DNA of 64,000 nucleotides, from assembly GCA_963575745.1 (NCBI GenBank), contig CAUYUJ010000039.1, forward strand, positions 1 to 64,000, in the 5' to 3' direction. Within the stretch, counting starts at the first letter, position 1, and each line of letters starts with the position of its first letter. The notes below the pieces were generated by a model that searched no databases, had not been told where the DNA came from, and was given only the letters and a program-made list of their open reading frames with translations. Positions 146-63,775 of this stretch are shown piece after piece. The DNA is from Prorocentrum cordatum. Taxonomy: Eukaryota. The translations under genes were made by a program, and so were the position numbers.

Positions 146-178
146 GCGGGCATCGTCGGCCCGACCGGCTGTGGCAAG
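146..178 (+). CDS. ABCC/MRP-type ABC transporter micro-exon, Walker A (AGIVGPTGCGK)
   Basis: cag|GCG acceptor and AAG|gc donor. Translates to GIVGPTGCGK and joins in phase 0 to the exon at 3462 to give GPTGCGKST. Confidence 0.9.
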
Positions 179-548
179 GCGGGGGCGCTCTCGCCGCTCC
201 GGCGAAGCGGTTGCCATCTCTTGGAGTCGGCTGGGGGTGTGAAGAAAGGTGCACCTTGGTGGCTGGCGCTGTTCGGACCCAGGCTGCATTGATCAGTATT
301 TTCTAGATGGTTGGATGGGCGCGGTGAGGCTTTCAGGCCGAAGCTTTCGGGCTCCAGGAGATTCAGAGGGGCGAGCTTTCTCTCATGCGTTCCGAAAGCG
401 CAGCGGCGGATCCCCTCTGAGAGCGTCTGCACGGCCCAGCTTGCTGGGACCCCCTCGCACAGTCGCTCGGGGTGAAGAGAGAGGGGGCCCGAACGGGGCC
501 CCGTGGGGCCCAAAAGGGGCACGAAAGGTGCACGTTTCTTCTCGCCTC

Positions 549-693
549 AAGTCGGGCCTGTCCCTCTACAGGGGGAATATCCAAAACAACAAAAATAGTC
601 AGGGGACTATTCTGGGACTATTTTTTTAGCATTCTGGGCGTATTGTTCGGGTATGTTTAATTGTTCTGCCACTACAGGGGACAGGCCCGACTT
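549..693. mobile_element. MITE-like element with TIR AAGTCGGGCCTGTCCC (second copy ~53467-53624)
   Basis: Terminal inverted repeats, AT-rich interior, two dispersed copies. Confidence 0.75.
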
Positions 694-749
694 AATTCTC
701 GCCCCCCTCCCCCATCTGTCGCCCCACTATTTTCGAAGAAACAAAACGC

Positions 750-58876: not shown

Positions 58877-61872
58877 CTCGGGAGGATCGCGGGACCCATT
58901 CCGAATCTGTCTCTTAGTGGTCGTCAGGTCATGGTTTAGGAACATACGCGGGAATCAGTCGCACAATCAAGAGATACTTGCGCTCCACTTCGCCGCCCCA
59001 CGCGCGATCTGCAAGAACGCCCGCACGCATGAACGACAATGGATGGACGGCGCGTTTGCCCGCGCGGGCAACGCGCGGGCACGAACGACCGGCCCTCCGT
59101 GACCGCCAAGATTGGATACCAATCGTACCGGGTCGCATACGTGAGCGGTCGATTGAGCAGACCTGGGCCATTCAGCCCCCAGTGCAGACCCCCTGTCGCA
59201 AACCCCTCCTTTCACCACCCAGTCTGTTCTCGCGCGGCCTCGCTGCCGCTGTCGCTTTCACGCGATTCGGCGAACGAGCCATGCGACGCGCCGGCGCGGG
59301 AACACCACTTCCGAGCGAAATGCACACAGATGCTGGGTAAGGGCGGCAAGTCGCCCATTCGCGCGGCTCCTTTCGCGCCGTGTCGAGGCGGGAACGCCAC
59401 TTCAGGCGAAGTTCGCACTGCGCCGAAGCGAGGAGTACGGTATTCGCCCGCCGGCGCGTCGACGAAGGTGCGTGCGAAAATTATGCGCCGCGCCCGAGCG
59501 GGAACCCGAGGGATGTGCAGCTCTTCCCATTCTGTCCGCGCGTGTGGCAGCATGGGCCACGTAATGCCCAGGTTGCAACGAACAAATGCAACTTTGCATT
59601 GCGTTCTCACTCAGGGCGTTGGGGGTCCCGGATCGGGCGGCTATCGGCGGGCTGCGGGTGGGGAATAGCGGGATATACGAATAAGGAATACTGGTATGTC
59701 CTAGCCAGTTCGGACCGCAAGCATTGAGTTGTTGCATTCCACGCGGCGCAGTCTAGCCGGTACAATTTATTGTTTGACAATTTATGAGTTCGCGCTGTTT
59801 GTTTAGCCATGGTTTGCACATCTTTGCGGCCACGCTGGCGCGCGCAAGCTCGCGCGCAGAGCGGCCAGCTGGCTTGGCCCAGGCAATGCGGCCGCGATGG
59901 CGCTTTCCGGTGGCAGCGTCCCAGCGCGTGTCAAAGACCGCGCTGGCGCGCGGGTTCTTAATGCGGGTCGATGCTTGCGCGGGCGCAGTATCATGATGAC
60001 GTCCACAACAGTGGCAACGATGATGATGGTATCGATTGTGGTGGCTATGATGAAGATGACGGCAAGGCCAATGACGGCTTAACCCGATGTCAAATGATGA
60101 TGTCCATGTGTAGATGACGGAGGTGTTTGGGTGATGATGGCGACAATTGCGGTAAGTGCCGATGTCGATGACGTGACGCGGCGGCGCAGATGGGGGTGAT
60201 GGTGAGGAAGCGCGAGCGCGCGCAAATCCAAGAACCCTGCATTTACGGTGCCCCGCATTTCTGTTTAAAGGAATTGGGCCTGACGGCCGGTCTTACGGCT
60301 ATGTGGTTGCCGCCGCCGCTCTGCCGAAGCCTCGTCGCCGCTGGTCGTCTGGGCCTGACGGCCAGTCTGTCGGCTATGTGGCCGCCGTGGCCGCCCCGTC
60401 GCCGCCTCGTCGCAGCATATATTGCACAACATAGATTGCAACCCGTTCTTTTGTCTGAAAAGAATTTCGGATCTCCCCCCAGCCCCCAGATTCGTTGGGC
60501 CGCCCTGGGAGAGCACGACTTACGTATGGTTCTGCCCCACTGTCCATTCTAAATGAAAATTCGTACCGTCCAGGGAGTGCCGTCATCGAACCCCAGTTGA
60601 TCCGTGCCAAGTTATACTATGCGCGCGCATTCGCTGATCAAGAATCACTTTTTGCAAGAAACGTTGCAACACACGGGACCAAGACGACACGCGCGCGCGT
60701 CGTTGCGCGCGCTTGTTGAAATGATTCAAGAACTTTGTGTTCGTAAGGAGTTCAAGACCGAGCTGGGCGAAAACATATGATTACACTTGTTTTGCAACAG
60801 GGTGTTCAAGCGTCTGGGCGGTTTTGCGAGTTCTTATAAAGACTTTAGCTTTATCCATACATTCATTCAGAGTGGCCAAGCCGTCCTCTCGCGCGCGCAT
60901 GTCGAAATCATTCGAACGCCCTTGCGCGTTTGCTGGAGGGTGCACGATGCCTGTCTAATAAAACCATGTGGGCTATTTGCGCCTGTCGGCCGCGCGCGCA
61001 TGTCGAAATCCTTCCAAAGTCTTCAGCATCGACACGAGAACTACGTCATCGTCATCGGCGCGATCAGCATTGGCGCCGTCACTGGCATTGCCGTTGTCAT
61101 CGTCATCTGTGTCACCAGCATCGCTAGTATCACCCTCGTGCCTGCAGTTGTCGACGTCGCCATGGTACCGCGCAGGTGCAAGCACTGTTTGGGGAGTGAG
61201 GCGGAGGAGGGCCCCAGCTCAGCGGTGAGGGCGGCCGGCCGTGAACACAGGCGAGAGAGATCCCAATTGCCTCTAGGCCAGAAGAAGTATAAGAAGCACA
61301 CCGTGCACACTTGCGCCTTGCTTTTAGCTGCCGCCACACATCGGTCGGAGCGGGGGAAGGCTACAGTCGGGGCACTGAGGAAGGAACCCTTTTCGTTGGG
61401 GAGGGGCTCCGCGTTCCTAAAGTGTTTCGCAGTTCGCCTCAGGCTTTCCTTATGGCTTCGATGGGAAATCGAAGGTTTGCTCATGGAAAAAAGGGGCCTC
61501 GTTCCTTATTTAGGGTTCCTTAGGTCAACGCCCCGACTGTACACCGTGCACACCTGCGCCTTGCCTTTCGCTGCCGCCTCGCGTCAGTCGGAGCGGGGGA
61601 AGGCTGCATCCCGTCCATGGCAGCCGGAGGCCCGCCCCATGTGCCGTCTCGCCTCGGGCCCCCGCTCTTCAGCAGGCGAGAAACACACAGACACAGTGAA
61701 TCGTCGATCCCCAGGAAAACATAGAAAAATATAGGAAGTGGGGGGTGGGGAAGACGAAGACCCAGAACATATGGCAAACTAGGGGGGAATATGTTTCTTT
61801 GTGCGTGTCTATTTGTGTGTCCCAGGGTCCCTTCAGCTTGGTCGCCGCCGCGGCGGCCGGGCCCCGCCCGAG

Positions 61873-61928
61873 GACGGCCTCAACTTCCAGGTCAACGGCG
61901 AGGGGCTGAACCTGAGCTTTGGCCAGAG
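61873..61928 (+). CDS. ABCC transporter micro-exon with ABC signature (DGLNFQVNGEGLNLSFGQ/R)
   Basis: ag|GAC acceptor and AG|gc donor. Matches GLxxxVxxxGxNLSxGQR. Confidence 0.92.
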
Positions 61929-63714
61929 GCTCGCGAGGGAGGGAGGGAGGGAGCTTTAAAAAGACGCGAAGATCGGGTCAAAATCGGATCGGGATGACTC
62001 GAAATCTCTGAGAATCGGCGGGTTTGGAGGATGTATTGGGCGCCGCGGCCGCTCCAGAGCGTTCCGGAACGCTCTGAGAGCGCTCCGGAACGCTCTGGAG
62101 CGATTTATCCCGATCCTAGCCCTGTTTTAAGTTTACGCAATCCATCCGGCTCGTCTTCATCCTGCTCCCCTCGTGTCCTCCTCCGCCGCCCCCCCCCCTT
62201 ATAGCACTCCTCCGCCTCGCTGCCCCCCGCCTTCCCCTCTCCGCCCCTGCTCTCTCAGCAGCTTCCTCCCCCTCTCTCCTCGCGGTGCCATGCCCTCGCT
62301 CTCTTCTAATCCCCGCCGCCTCCTCGTATCGGGGCCAGGCAGGGTAAGATCCGTCGTCCTTCATGGCCGTACCTTCCTCGGTTCCTCGGTATCCCCTTCT
62401 CCTTAGCTTCCTCCACCCTTCTCCTTCCTCGCTTCTCCTTTTCTCTTTCCTCCTCTGTCTATGTCATCCTTCTCCCCTTTCTGTGTGACGTTGTTCTATA
62501 CGACTCAACATATTCCTCCACCTCCTTGTTCGTTCCCCTCCTCTATTCGCATCTTCCCGACTTATGCAGCATCGTATTTGTTCCGTGACGTGAGCCCCCA
62601 GACCTCTTGACCCCATCCCCGCGGACCCTTGTCTTGATTGTTGGTAGTTCTCTGATGGCCGTGGGCCCGTCTCAGACTTCTCGACACTGGGAAATGGGCC
62701 TCCGAGCTTCTCTTGACGAAGGACGTCCTTGGCTCGTCGGCCGAGGCTGTTGTCCAGAGGCGACACTTGCAAAATGCTCGTGTCGTTTCTGTCTTCACGA
62801 AGGGGGTTTTGGTTCGTCCTCGTCCACCTCCTGGTGCTCCTTGGCCGAGGCGGTCTGCCAGAGGGCCAACACCTTGAGATCGGTCGTACCGATGTTCTCG
62901 TGACGAAGGGGATCTGGAATCTGGACCTTCCTGCCCCCCCCTCCTTCAAGGACAACGTTACAGTGCCGTTTTAATACATGCTCCGCGTGCGGATCATGTA
63001 GTAAAAATGCAGGGGGTAGCATTAAACACAACGATGAGTTCATGTAACATGTATAAGTGTGCTCATACATTGATCATGTATTAAAAGTCCCAGATGTTTA
63101 AAATCCTACGTATTAAAAAAACAGCACTGTAGGGGGGACGGGCTCAGGCAGGGGAAGGGATACGCATCAACCCCAGATCGCTCATTGATCGCTGATAGGG
63201 GCCCGATAACCCACTCCGCCCAGGAACGTGCGGAGTCGCTGTCGGGGGCCCATCGCCGATCTATCGGCGATGTGTCGCCGATGCAAGGTCGATGCTTCCT
63301 CCCTTGAGCCGCTCCTCTCTATCTCCTCCCAGACGTCCAACGATTGGTGCTTGCCCCAGACGGCGCGACCCCTTCCCTGGGGGCAGCTTTCGTCCCGGAT
63401 GCGTTCGTCACGGCCCCGTGGCCCCGCGAGAAGGGCCTGAAGGTCGAAATCGAGGGACAACTGCCGGTTCCGTTTCGCTGGAGATCTGGGGTTGGCCCCC
63501 CTCCTGCTCCTCGGCCGACACCGACACCAAGGACGTCCTCTCCCTCCTCCTCCTGATCCTCCTCGTCCTCCTCCTCTCCTCCAAACTTTTTACGTGCCTC
63601 ACTGTGCATGTATTCAGACGAGCCAGGTCCGCGAGGCCACGGCGTCACCCACTTGGCCGGAGCCAGGCCCAGACATTGTCCGCAACGGCGGTTGCCTCGC
63701 ATCGCATCGCCCAG

Positions 63715-63775
63715 GCAGCTCATCAGCTTCGCGCGCAACGTCGTGAGGGGGCCGAAGCTGCTGCTCCTGGACGAG
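63715..63775 (+). CDS. ABCC transporter micro-exon with Walker B (R/QLISFARNVVRGPKLLLLDE)
   Basis: ccag|G acceptor completes the AG|G Arg codon; GAG|gc donor. Matches RQLxxxARAxxxxxKILLLDE. Confidence 0.92.

What the first reader, a model, noticed from the sequence alone, without database searches (positions are those of the whole stretch)
146..63775. Hidden host gene: ABCC transporter NBD scattered as micro-exons over 64 kb, with same-strand nested genes
Seen: joined exons read AGIVGPTGCGKSTLLLSLLRMLEPRDGRIYLEGVDTQQLG...GTLRFNIDPFQWYDDDAIWEALELVHMADFVKYELKDGLNFQVNGEGLNLSFGQRQLISFARNVVRGPKLLLLDE, with consistent phases and no stops. Only 343 nt of the window encode it. I could not find the Q-loop exon(s) (LR...PQDPxLF); they may lie in the gap. 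Inference: an intron of at least ~42 kb carries sense-strand retrogenes with their own poly(A) sites and a retroelement, which raises the question of how host read-through is kept.
Basis: partly seen in the sequence, partly recalled or inferred. Interest (0 to 1): 0.72.

Follow-up and report, generated by a model that had tools for sequence, protein, structure and literature searches.

The report
Dinoflagellate ABCC gene in micro-exons
The window holds seven tiny exons of a real, expressed ABC-transporter gene of the dinoflagellate Prorocentrum cordatum, separated by huge repeat-filled introns that also carry retro-copied genes, which is a normal gene layout for these algae.

Summary
Seven + strand micro-exons (343 nt) lie at 146-178, 3462-3511, 8786-8821, 53365-53423, 54860-54907, 61873-61928 and 63715-63775. 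They translate without a single difference to residues 1401-1439 and 1461-1534 of P0002, a 1622-aa transcript-derived protein. P0002 has the TMD-NBD-TMD-NBD layout, and its best solved relatives are ABCC2, YCF1 and MRP1. Splice sites are dinoflagellate-type: donors GC x3, GA x3, GT x1; acceptors AG|G in 6 of 7.

The 59-nt Q-loop exon(s) (P0002 residues 1441-1459 plus two split codons) is nowhere in the window on either strand. It most likely lies in unassembled DNA at the 100-N gap (50624-50723). The published assembly method for this species inserts exactly 100 Ns at transcript-guided joins.

As assembled, the intron after exon 3 is at least 41.8 kb of gap-free sequence. It carries four tandem same-strand copies of a retrogene, each with an exact 22-nt spliced-leader relic, and a reverse-transcriptase ORF. 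Near-identical retrogene RNA exists but cannot be assigned to these copies.

Short exons, long introns and nested genes are already described in dinoflagellates. This is an ordinary, well-read locus whose host gene seems to be missing from the deposited protein set.

The parts
146..178 (+). ABCC exon E1 (Walker A start, AGIVGPTGCGK); acceptor cag|G, donor GC
   Evidence: Identical to P0002 1401-1411
3462..3511 (+). ABCC exon E2 (STLLLSLLRMLEPRDG + 2 nt of R); acceptor cag|T, donor GA
   Evidence: Identical to P0002 1412-1428
8786..8821 (+). ABCC exon E3 (IYLEGVDTQQL + GG of G1440); acceptor cag|G, donor GA
   Evidence: Identical to P0002 1428-1440
8822..53364 (+). 'Intron 3' as assembled (44,543 nt including the gap). 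In reality it is at least two introns, because the 59-nt Q-loop exon(s) must lie between E3 and E4 and is not in the sequence.
   Evidence: No match to P0002 1441-1459. A direct E3-E4 join shifts the frame.
9877..13298 (+). (TAC)n array; left arm of a large inverted repeat
   Evidence: I1: 13089-13671 vs 30899-31481, 583 nt, 94% complementary
14883..16396 (+). Retrogene copy 1: 22-nt DinoSL relic 14883-14904; ORF broken by a 4-nt deletion; A7 at 16390-16396
19903..21421 (+). Retrogene copy 2: DinoSL relic 19903-19924; ATG 19994; stop 21035-21037; intact 347-aa ORF; A7 at 21415-21421
   Evidence: The protein is identical to P0207 (NCBI, named Prorocentrum cordatum).
25144..26368 (+). Retrogene copy 3: DinoSL relic 25144-25165; 81-nt T-rich insertion and changed C-terminus; no A-run found
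28180..29701 (+). Retrogene copy 4: DinoSL relic 28180-28201; intact 347-aa ORF (4 residue differences from copy 2); A7 at 29695-29701
31284..34522 (+). (GTA)n array; right arm of the inverted repeat around the retrogene array
42253..46098 (+). 1281-codon open frame of a retroelement; RVT_1 at residues 630-836; flanked by (GTA)n at 41263-42253 and 50358-50623
   Evidence: No solved relative by sequence.
50624..50723 (.). 100-N assembly gap; the likely place of the missing Q-loop exon(s)
   Evidence: L_RNA_scaffolder, used for the published P. cordatum assembly, inserts 100 Ns when the exon distance exceeds the median intron.
53365..53423 (+). ABCC exon E4 (GC of G1460 + TLRFNIDPFQWYDDDAIWE); acceptor cag|G, donor GT
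54860..54907 (+). ABCC exon E5 (ALELVHMADFVKYELK); acceptor cag|G, donor GA
   Evidence: These residues tell transcript variants apart; the window matches the P0002 type.
61873..61928 (+). ABCC exon E6 (DGLNFQVNGEGLNLSFGQ + AG; ABC signature LSFGQ); acceptor gag|G, donor GC
63715..63775 (+). ABCC exon E7 (G + QLISFARNVVRGPKLLLLDE; Walker B and catalytic Glu); acceptor cag|G, donor GC

Best explanation
The window is a piece of the nuclear genome of the dinoflagellate Prorocentrum cordatum. It lies inside one very long protein-coding gene for a full-size ABCC (MRP-type) ABC transporter.

Shown:
- Seven micro-exons of 33-61 nt encode the second nucleotide-binding domain from Walker A to Walker B.
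- In a mature mRNA type these pieces are contiguous.
- The splice sites are of the dinoflagellate kind (GC/GA/GT donors, AG|G acceptors).

Inferred:
- The one missing piece is the 59-nt Q-loop exon or exons. It sits in DNA that the assembly lacks at the 100-N gap.
- That gap was probably created when two contigs were joined with a transcript as guide.
- The real distance between exons 3 and 4 is therefore unknown, but at least 44 kb.

The intron downstream of exon 3 was colonised by repeats: (TAC)n/(GTA)n arrays, a 90-bp satellite, a reverse-transcriptase element, and one retroposed mRNA copy. That copy has a spliced-leader relic, an intronless ORF and a short A-run. It encodes a secreted protein with a VWD-like C-terminal domain. 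It was then amplified to four copies by DNA-level tandem duplication, since the copies share more than 1 kb of sequence upstream of the relic.

How the host transcript gets through is not shown. My best guess is that the polymerase reads through. Dinoflagellate genes are co-directional and mRNA ends are made by processing. Nested copies that are expressed would be cut out by spliced-leader trans-splicing and 3' processing, in competition with cis-splicing of the host intron.
For: Host gene:
- P0002 was found with a 40-aa reference around E4. It was one of 2 hits among 2 candidates.
- It contains all seven pieces in order, without a difference.
- P0002 has 2 ABC_membrane and 2 ABC_tran stretches; ABC_tran scores 2e-43, with NBD2 at 1388-1537.
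- Its best solved relatives are ABCC2 (4e-124), AtABCC2, YCF1, ABCC3 and MRP1. ABCB chains reach only about 1e-79.

Splice sites and organism:
- Donors are GC 3, GA 3, GT 1, and 6 of 7 acceptors are AG|G.
- The P. cordatum genome paper gives GC 51.4%, GT 24.7%, GA 23.8%, AGG 79.7%, genome G+C 59.7% and mean intron 4709 bp (passages).
- The organism name comes from NCBI names of proteins identical to the nested ORF.

Missing exon and gap:
- The Q-loop piece is absent on both strands.
- An E3-E4 direct join shifts the frame.
- The assembly was scaffolded with L_RNA_scaffolder. That program writes 100 Ns when the exon distance exceeds the median intron.

Nested elements:
- Exact DinoSL relic in 4 of 4 copies, against 0.07 expected. 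The canonical sequence is given in PMC5585692.
- RVT_1 at 6.5e-12.
- The copies align upstream of the relic.
- Contigs of two runs guessed to be RNA (not shown to be transcribed) and of one poly(A) RNA run cover 19928-21250 at 99% identity or more.

The layout of short exons, long introns and nested genes (25% of genes) is reported for Amphidinium carterae (passages).
Against: The physical link between the left and right exon sets crosses the 100-N gap. If that join was made with this very transcript, the adjacency is not independent evidence.

The left set (residues 1401-1440) is identical in all 13 transcript-derived variants that could be placed. Only the right set can be assigned to the P0002 type.

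No RNA or DNA reads were laid on the exons themselves. Reads were laid on the retrogene, so junction use rests on the protein-level match.

The RNA contigs over the retrogene carry C at 20638, where all four window copies have T. They also mix copy-specific letters. An identical protein is annotated on another scaffold (P0207). Expression of the nested copies themselves is therefore not shown.

The left contig runs through several kb of (TAC)n/(GTA)n and ends in (AGT)n. These are places where a hybrid assembly can mis-join.
Confidence: 0.8

Rival explanations
1. Assembly chimera. The ABCC exons are real, but the 40 kb between them (retrogene array, RT element) was brought in by a mis-join inside the (TAC)n/(GTA)n arrays or by the scaffolder. 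It would then not be intronic in the living genome.
For: (TAC)n starts only 1 kb after E3, at 9877. Inverted arrays of the same microsatellite bracket the retrogene array, and the left contig ends in (AGT)n at the gap. The assembly is a hybrid one with transcript-guided scaffolding.
Against: The unique parts of the inverted arms are 94% complementary, not 100%, which speaks for two diverged genomic copies rather than a folded read. All inserted genes lie on the host strand. The same 90-bp satellite and interspersed repeats also fill the uncontested introns 2 and 5. Nested genes in long introns are common in dinoflagellates.
Confidence: 0.15
2. Two paralogues or alleles. E1-E3 and E4-E7 belong to different copies of the ABCC gene that were stitched together at the 100-N gap because one transcript aligns to both contigs.
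For: At least four protein variants of this transporter exist in transcript data. The left set is invariant among them, so it fits any variant. The 100-N gap fits a transcript-guided join.
Against: The two sets break at exactly complementary points, with only one 59-nt exon missing. They share strand and order. No second partial copy of any exon is in the window.
Confidence: 0.1
3. Decaying gene copy. The window holds a pseudogene of the ABCC gene that lost its Q-loop exon. The expressed mRNA comes from another locus.
For: The Q-loop exon is absent, and a direct E3-E4 join is out of frame. No protein from NCBI's P. cordatum set containing exon E4 was found (cluster sources).
Against: There are 113 of 113 identical codons and seven intact acceptor/donor pairs. 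The absence coincides with an assembly gap, which is a simpler cause.
Confidence: 0.05

Closest known systems
ABCC / MRP-type full ABC transporters (solved: human ABCC2, ABCC3, MRP1; yeast YCF1; Arabidopsis ABCC2)
   Same: The transcript protein P0002 has the TMD-NBD-TMD-NBD order and matches these chains best over its whole length (4e-124 to 1e-109). The window encodes Walker A, the signature motif and Walker B with the catalytic Glu of NBD2.
   Different: Substrate and cell location are unknown. The NBD2 alone scores slightly better against ABCB chains. The gene is split into 33-61-nt exons with GC/GA donors.
Nested genes in long introns of dinoflagellate genes (Amphidinium carterae nanopore genome, PMC12584245)
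   Same: Short exons, long introns and further genes inside the introns. 25.2% of genes are reported as nested, with up to 28 nested genes in one host (passages read).
   Different: Here the nested genes are four tandem copies of one DinoSL-relic retrogene plus an RT element, bracketed by inverted microsatellite arrays. Their own expression is not shown.
DinoSL-relic retrogenes (Song et al. 2017, PMC5585692; Slamovits and Keeling 2008 as cited there)
   Same: A complete 22-nt spliced-leader relic lies 70-91 nt upstream of the start codon, inside the -50 to -100 zone where that paper finds the best-kept relics. The ORF is intronless.
   Different: There is a single relic, so no sign of repeated recycling. 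The copy number here rose by DNA-level tandem duplication of a 3-5 kb unit, not by repeated retroposition.
Transcript-guided scaffold joins (L_RNA_scaffolder, PMC3846640)
   Same: A gap of exactly 100 N lies between two exon-bearing contigs whose exon distance exceeds the median intron. The tool was used for the published P. cordatum assembly.
   Different: It is not shown that this particular gap came from that step; other assemblers also write fixed-size gaps.

Membership tests
ABC transporter nucleotide-binding domain (Pfam PF00005 ABC_tran) | Walker A (P-loop), ABC signature and Walker B, in this order | tested here: met
   GPTGCGKS spans E1/E2, LSFGQ is in E6 and LLLLDE is in E7. P0002 residues 1388-1537 match the whole 137-position profile; ABC_tran scores 2e-43 for the whole protein. 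The single open frames around six of the seven exons (all but E1) give no ABC_tran hit at E <= 0.01, 0 of 6 tested.
ABC transporter nucleotide-binding domain (Pfam PF00005 ABC_tran) | Q-loop glutamine between Walker A and the signature | tested here: not met
   Not met in the window DNA: there is no match to P0002 1441-1459 on either strand. It is present in the transcript protein, where VPQDP aligns to the VQQEP stretch of a solved ABC transporter. The gene product has it; the assembled locus lacks the exon.
ABCC (MRP/CFTR/SUR) subfamily | Full transporter, TMD1-NBD1-TMD2-NBD2 in one chain | tested here: met
   P0002 has ABC_membrane in 2 stretches and ABC_tran in 2 stretches. This was tested on the transcript protein; the window covers only NBD2.
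ABCC (MRP/CFTR/SUR) subfamily | Closer to ABCC than to ABCB or other subfamilies | tested here: met
   For the full length, the best ABCC chains score 4e-124 to 1e-101, and the first ABCB chain 2.9e-79. For the NBD2-only protein P0001 the order is reversed (ABCB 4e-67 to 1e-65, ABCC2 1e-61), so the window alone is inconclusive. No tree was built.
ABCC (MRP/CFTR/SUR) subfamily | Degenerate NBD1 (Asp in place of the catalytic Glu after Walker B) paired with a consensus NBD2 | tested here: met
   P0002 NBD1 reads LVLLDDP and NBD2 reads LLLLDEA. That this asymmetry is an ABCC hallmark is recalled, not taken from a call.
DinoSL-relic retrogene | DNA-encoded spliced-leader sequence upstream of the ORF | tested here: met
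   The 22-nt relic is identical in 4 of 4 copies. The 15-nt core gives 4 matches against 0.07 expected, and 0 of 100 shuffles reach 4. The canonical sequence is given in PMC5585692.
DinoSL-relic retrogene | Intronless copy ending in a poly(A) relic; an intron-bearing parent elsewhere | tested here: inconclusive
   One uninterrupted 347-codon ORF is present in 2 of 4 copies. Only a 7-A run marks the 3' end, in 3 of 4 copies. The parent gene and target-site duplications were not sought; no genome is held.
Retrotransposon | Reverse-transcriptase domain | tested here: met
   RVT_1 scores 6.5e-12, 46 bits against a cut-off of 29.6, at residues 630-836 of the 1281-codon frame.
Retrotransposon | Class-defining parts (endonuclease or integrase, LTRs or poly(A)/microsatellite tail, target-site duplication) | tested here: inconclusive
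   No further Pfam domain appears at E <= 0.01. There is no PDB sequence match. The element is flanked by (GTA)n on both sides. Its class is not assigned.
Nested gene (gene lying wholly inside an intron of a host gene) | Lies between two exons that are joined in the host mRNA | tested here: met
   This holds as assembled. The four copies and the RT frame lie between E3 and E4, which are 19 residues apart in P0002. The result depends on the assembly being right across (TAC)n and the gap.
Nested gene (gene lying wholly inside an intron of a host gene) | Own transcript | tested here: inconclusive
   RNA contigs 99% or more alike cover the copy, but they differ from all four copies at 20638.

The most novel reading that the evidence does not exclude
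The four same-strand retrogene copies may have no promoters of their own. They would be made from the ABCC pre-mRNA itself. The >=42-kb intron would act as a polycistronic carrier from which nested mRNAs are released by spliced-leader trans-splicing at the AG that ends each relic and by 3'-end processing. Each host transcript would then either yield nested mRNAs or be cis-spliced into ABCC mRNA. That would tie the output of a transporter gene to that of a secreted-protein family.
Probability: 0.12. Interest if true: 0.6.

Novelty: new member of a known kind. Interest (0 to 1): 0.25.

Why it matters

In the searches run here, the gene has no counterpart among NCBI's P. cordatum proteins. The search seeded on exon E4 returned only two transcript-derived clusters, and neither has an NCBI member. 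The search with full-length P0002 over proteins of 892-2839 aa found nothing from that species above 62% identity. So the practical value is a missing or broken gene model for a full-size MRP-type transporter in a bloom-forming alga.

The locus is also a worked example of two annotation problems. Micro-exons combined with a transcript-guided scaffold gap can hide an essential exon. Retro-copied genes are annotated (for example the model behind P0003) while their host gene is not.

Biologically the layout is what recent dinoflagellate genomes describe. It does not open a new question beyond the standing one of how co-directional nested genes and their hosts share transcription.

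Tried and rejected
1. Pattern searches for a Q-loop exon (PQ[DE]P-like motifs) gave only unrelated hits.

2. The 5-residue matches RQSVG (35261 +; 34534 - in an inverted repeat) and LVPQD (54351 +) were considered as Q-loop micro-exons and rejected. They have no AG acceptor, no extension, and one lies after E4. About one such hit is expected by chance from the roughly 120 five-residue hits in the window.

3. A 7-residue match DVGTASL at 57056 (P0002 1197-1203) lies out of order without a usable donor. 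It was taken as chance.

4. The genome search 'own': no genome is held.

5. The search for related loci in metagenome contigs with P0001 gave 80 loci, the best 55-56% identical and none the same gene. No transcript nucleotides were obtained for a synonymous-site test.

7. In one search, the bins 18818-19870 had no cover in any of the 4 runs. This is no evidence of silence.

8. Ten X1 contig joints from 18451-18457 to 21414-21426 have sides of only 20-25 nt inside a high-copy repeat. That is too weak to call an empty site.

10. The PDB sequence search with the RT frame gave 0 hits. The Atlas search with 48263-49495 gave no usable hit. Pfam on 78 further open frames gave no credible domain: two hits below cut-off in low-complexity frames.

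11. The search of earlier findings by place and by words returned nothing.

12. The N-terminus of P0001, which differs from P0002, is not encoded in the window.

Full report
**What the window is.** The 64-kb window is 59% G+C and has a single run of 100 N at 50624-50723. Proteins identical or nearly identical to an ORF in it are named Prorocentrum cordatum by NCBI. The published genome of that dinoflagellate has 59.7% G+C, a mean intron of 4709 bp, and donors GC 51.4%, GT 24.7% and GA 23.8%. Its acceptors are AGG in 79.7% of cases (passages of PMC10666404). No whole genome is held for the window.

**Check of the observation.** A 40-residue reference around the piece at 53364 was searched against longer proteins. 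It returned 2 proteins among 2 candidates:
- P0002, a 1622-aa complete ORF of a marine-eukaryote transcriptome.
- P0001, a 234-aa fragment.

P0002 contains all seven pieces in the window's order. With splice-compatible bounds the exons are:

| Exon | Coordinates |
|---|---|
| E1 | 146-178 |
| E2 | 3462-3511 |
| E3 | 8786-8821 |
| E4 | 53365-53423 |
| E5 | 54860-54907 |
| E6 | 61873-61928 |
| E7 | 63715-63775 |

Their 113 complete codons equal P0002 residues 1401-1439 and 1461-1534 without a difference, and the split codons fit G1440 and G1460. Elsewhere in the window the longest exact match to P0002 is 7 residues on the + strand and 6 on the - strand. Donors are GC, GA, GA, GT, GA, GC, GC. Every exon ends in G, and acceptors are cag|G five times, cag|T once and gag|G once. 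This is the dinoflagellate pattern.

**What the gene is.** P0002 has two ABC_membrane and two ABC_tran stretches, with NBD2 at 1388-1537. Over its full length it matches solved ABCC2, plant ABCC2, YCF1, ABCC3 and MRP1 at 4e-124 to 1e-109. The first ABCB chain stands at 2.9e-79. The NBD2-only fragment P0001 scores slightly better against ABCB chains than against ABCC2. The window encodes Walker A (E1/E2), the signature LSFGQ (E6) and Walker B with the catalytic Glu (E7). None of the six exon-bearing open frames that were scanned gives an ABC_tran hit on its own, so the gene is indeed hidden from ORF-wise scans.

**The missing exon.** P0002 residues 1441-1459 hold the Q-loop; VPQDP aligns to the VQQEP stretch of a solved ABC transporter. 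They are not encoded anywhere in the window on either strand. Three 5-residue hits were examined and rejected. With the split codons the missing exon or exons measure 59 nt, so a direct E3-E4 join is out of frame. The exon must exist in the living genome.

The left contig runs 41.8 kb beyond E3 (8822-50623) without it, and the right contig has 2.6 kb before E4 without it. The P. cordatum assembly was scaffolded with L_RNA_scaffolder. That program inserts exactly 100 Ns where the distance between the neighbouring exons exceeds the median intron. I infer, at about 0.6, that the gap is such a transcript-guided join, possibly made with this very mRNA. If so, there are two consequences:
- The exon lies in unassembled DNA or on an unplaced contig.
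- The adjacency of the two exon sets is not independent of the transcript.

**Paralogue test.** The two protein clusters hold 14 sequences, of which 13 could be placed; P0202 had no anchor. Across residues 1401-1440 all that cover the region are identical, so the left set fits any variant. In the right set four positions vary: I/V, L/M, M/Q and E/D. The window equals the P0002/P0200/P0203 type at all of them. There is no conflict, but also no proof that both sets are one paralogue. A scan of metagenome contigs for transcript nucleotides gave only relatives of 56% identity or less.

**What fills the big intron.** The content, in order, is:
- (TAC)n at 9877-13298 and (GTA)n at 31284-34522 are inverted to each other. 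Their unique inner ends (13089-13671 and 30899-31481) are 94% complementary.
- Between them lie four tandem units, spaced 5.0, 5.2 and 3.0 kb apart. Each has an identical 22-nt spliced-leader relic (canonical sequence in PMC5585692), a 69-nt leader and a 347-codon ORF. In 3 of 4 copies a 7-A run lies about 380 nt after the stop.
- Copies 2 and 4 are intact. Copy 1 has a 4-nt deletion, and copy 3 has an 81-nt insertion with a changed C-terminus.
- The units are alike for more than 1 kb upstream of the relic. This means one retroposition followed by DNA-level duplication.
- The protein has no Pfam family. By predicted structure its C-terminal half looks like a VWD domain. This is a lead only: TM-scores by query are at most 0.40. 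That half is shared with many P. cordatum proteins that have other N-termini.
- Further on, a 1281-codon frame (42253-46098) carries RVT_1. It is flanked by (GTA)n on both sides.

All of these lie on the host strand.

- Contigs of two runs guessed to be RNA cover about 19928-21420. X14 reaches 21248; X4 begins at 20135 and also runs on to 21805.
- Contigs of one poly(A) metatranscriptome (X15) cover 20403-21186 and 21294-21348. One example is a 520-nt contig with 2 differences.
- All three runs read C at 20638, where the four window copies have T, and they mix copy-specific letters.
- An identical protein is annotated on another scaffold (P0207).

A gene of this family is therefore transcribed, but not provably these nested copies. 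No reads were laid on the ABCC exons, so junction use rests on the exact protein-level match.

**How it most likely works.**
- Shown: the exon pieces are contiguous in an mRNA type that encodes a complete MRP-type transporter.
- Inferred: the polymerase crosses at least 64 kb here, and the spliceosome joins 33-61-nt exons over introns of 1.4 kb to more than 44 kb using GC/GA/GT donors. The intron was colonised by repeats, one retrocopy that was later amplified, and an RT element.
- Not shown: how host read-through coexists with same-strand nested genes. My best guess is the general dinoflagellate mode. Transcription is co-directional, and mRNA ends are made by trans-splicing and 3' processing. 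Nested copies, if active, would then compete with cis-splicing.

**Comparison and novelty.** Short exons, long introns and nested genes are reported as common in Amphidinium carterae: 25.2% of genes are nested, with up to 28 in one host. DinoSL-relic retrogenes make up more than 20% of Symbiodinium gene models. The locus is thus a further instance of known kinds.

What may be new is practical. No NCBI P. cordatum protein containing exon E4 turned up (cluster sources). None of 892-2839 aa exceeds 62% identity to P0002. Models shorter than 892 aa could not be searched. The host gene therefore seems unannotated, while its nested retrogenes are annotated.

**Verdict.** The caveats are the gap, the unassignable left exon set and the unproven activity of the nested copies. 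Interest is low to moderate.

Noticed in passing
window 9877-13671 and 30899-34522: Two 3.4-3.8-kb arms, (TAC)n and (GTA)n plus about 580 nt of unique sequence at 94% complementarity, form a giant inverted repeat around the 17-kb retrogene array. This could be a foldback-like structure or a weak point of the assembly.
   Followed up: partly
window 41263-42253, 42253-46098, 50358-50623: The reverse-transcriptase frame starts exactly where a 1-kb (GTA)n array ends. A second (AGT)n array lies downstream and runs into the N gap. The element may target or generate this microsatellite. No endonuclease domain was identified.
   Followed up: partly
window 46538-49498 (+): Two long open frames (574 and 411 codons) are in the same frame and separated by a single stop at 48260-48262. 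Together they make 986 codons without a Pfam, Atlas or other match. They may belong to the retroelement or be a decayed gene.
   Followed up: partly
window 6884-8337, 16810-18349, 21835-23549, 38480-39123: A 90-bp satellite recurs in introns 2 and 3. In run X1 the adjoining repeat pieces (18350-18466, 21392-21508) have word depths of about 100,000, so they are among the most abundant sequences of that data set.
   Followed up: no
window 18451-18457 joined to 21414-21426: Ten short X1 contig joints skip about 2.96 kb, ending at the A-run that closes retrogene copy 2. This hints that the retrogene-bearing unit sits inside a high-copy repeat that is uninterrupted elsewhere. The joint sides are only 20-25 nt, so the evidence is weak.
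   Followed up: no
window 19994-21034 (residues about 190-347): The C-terminal half of the retrogene protein begins with a GDPH motif. It is 85-97% identical to the C-termini of many P. cordatum proteins that have different N-terminal parts (FG-GAP-like, jacalin, subtilisin and apple annotations). It appears to be a mobile, VWD-like module.
   Followed up: partly
P0001 residues 1-29 (not in the window): The 234-aa transcript fragment P0001 has an N-terminus unrelated to P0002 up to the middle of exon E2. That sequence is not encoded in the window. It may be an alternative upstream exon or a chimeric contig.
   Followed up: partly
window 57056-57076 (+): There is a 7-residue exact match (DVGTASL) to P0002 1197-1203, in TMD2, inside intron 5. 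It is out of order and lacks a usable donor. It was taken as chance but is the longest non-exon match.
   Followed up: partly
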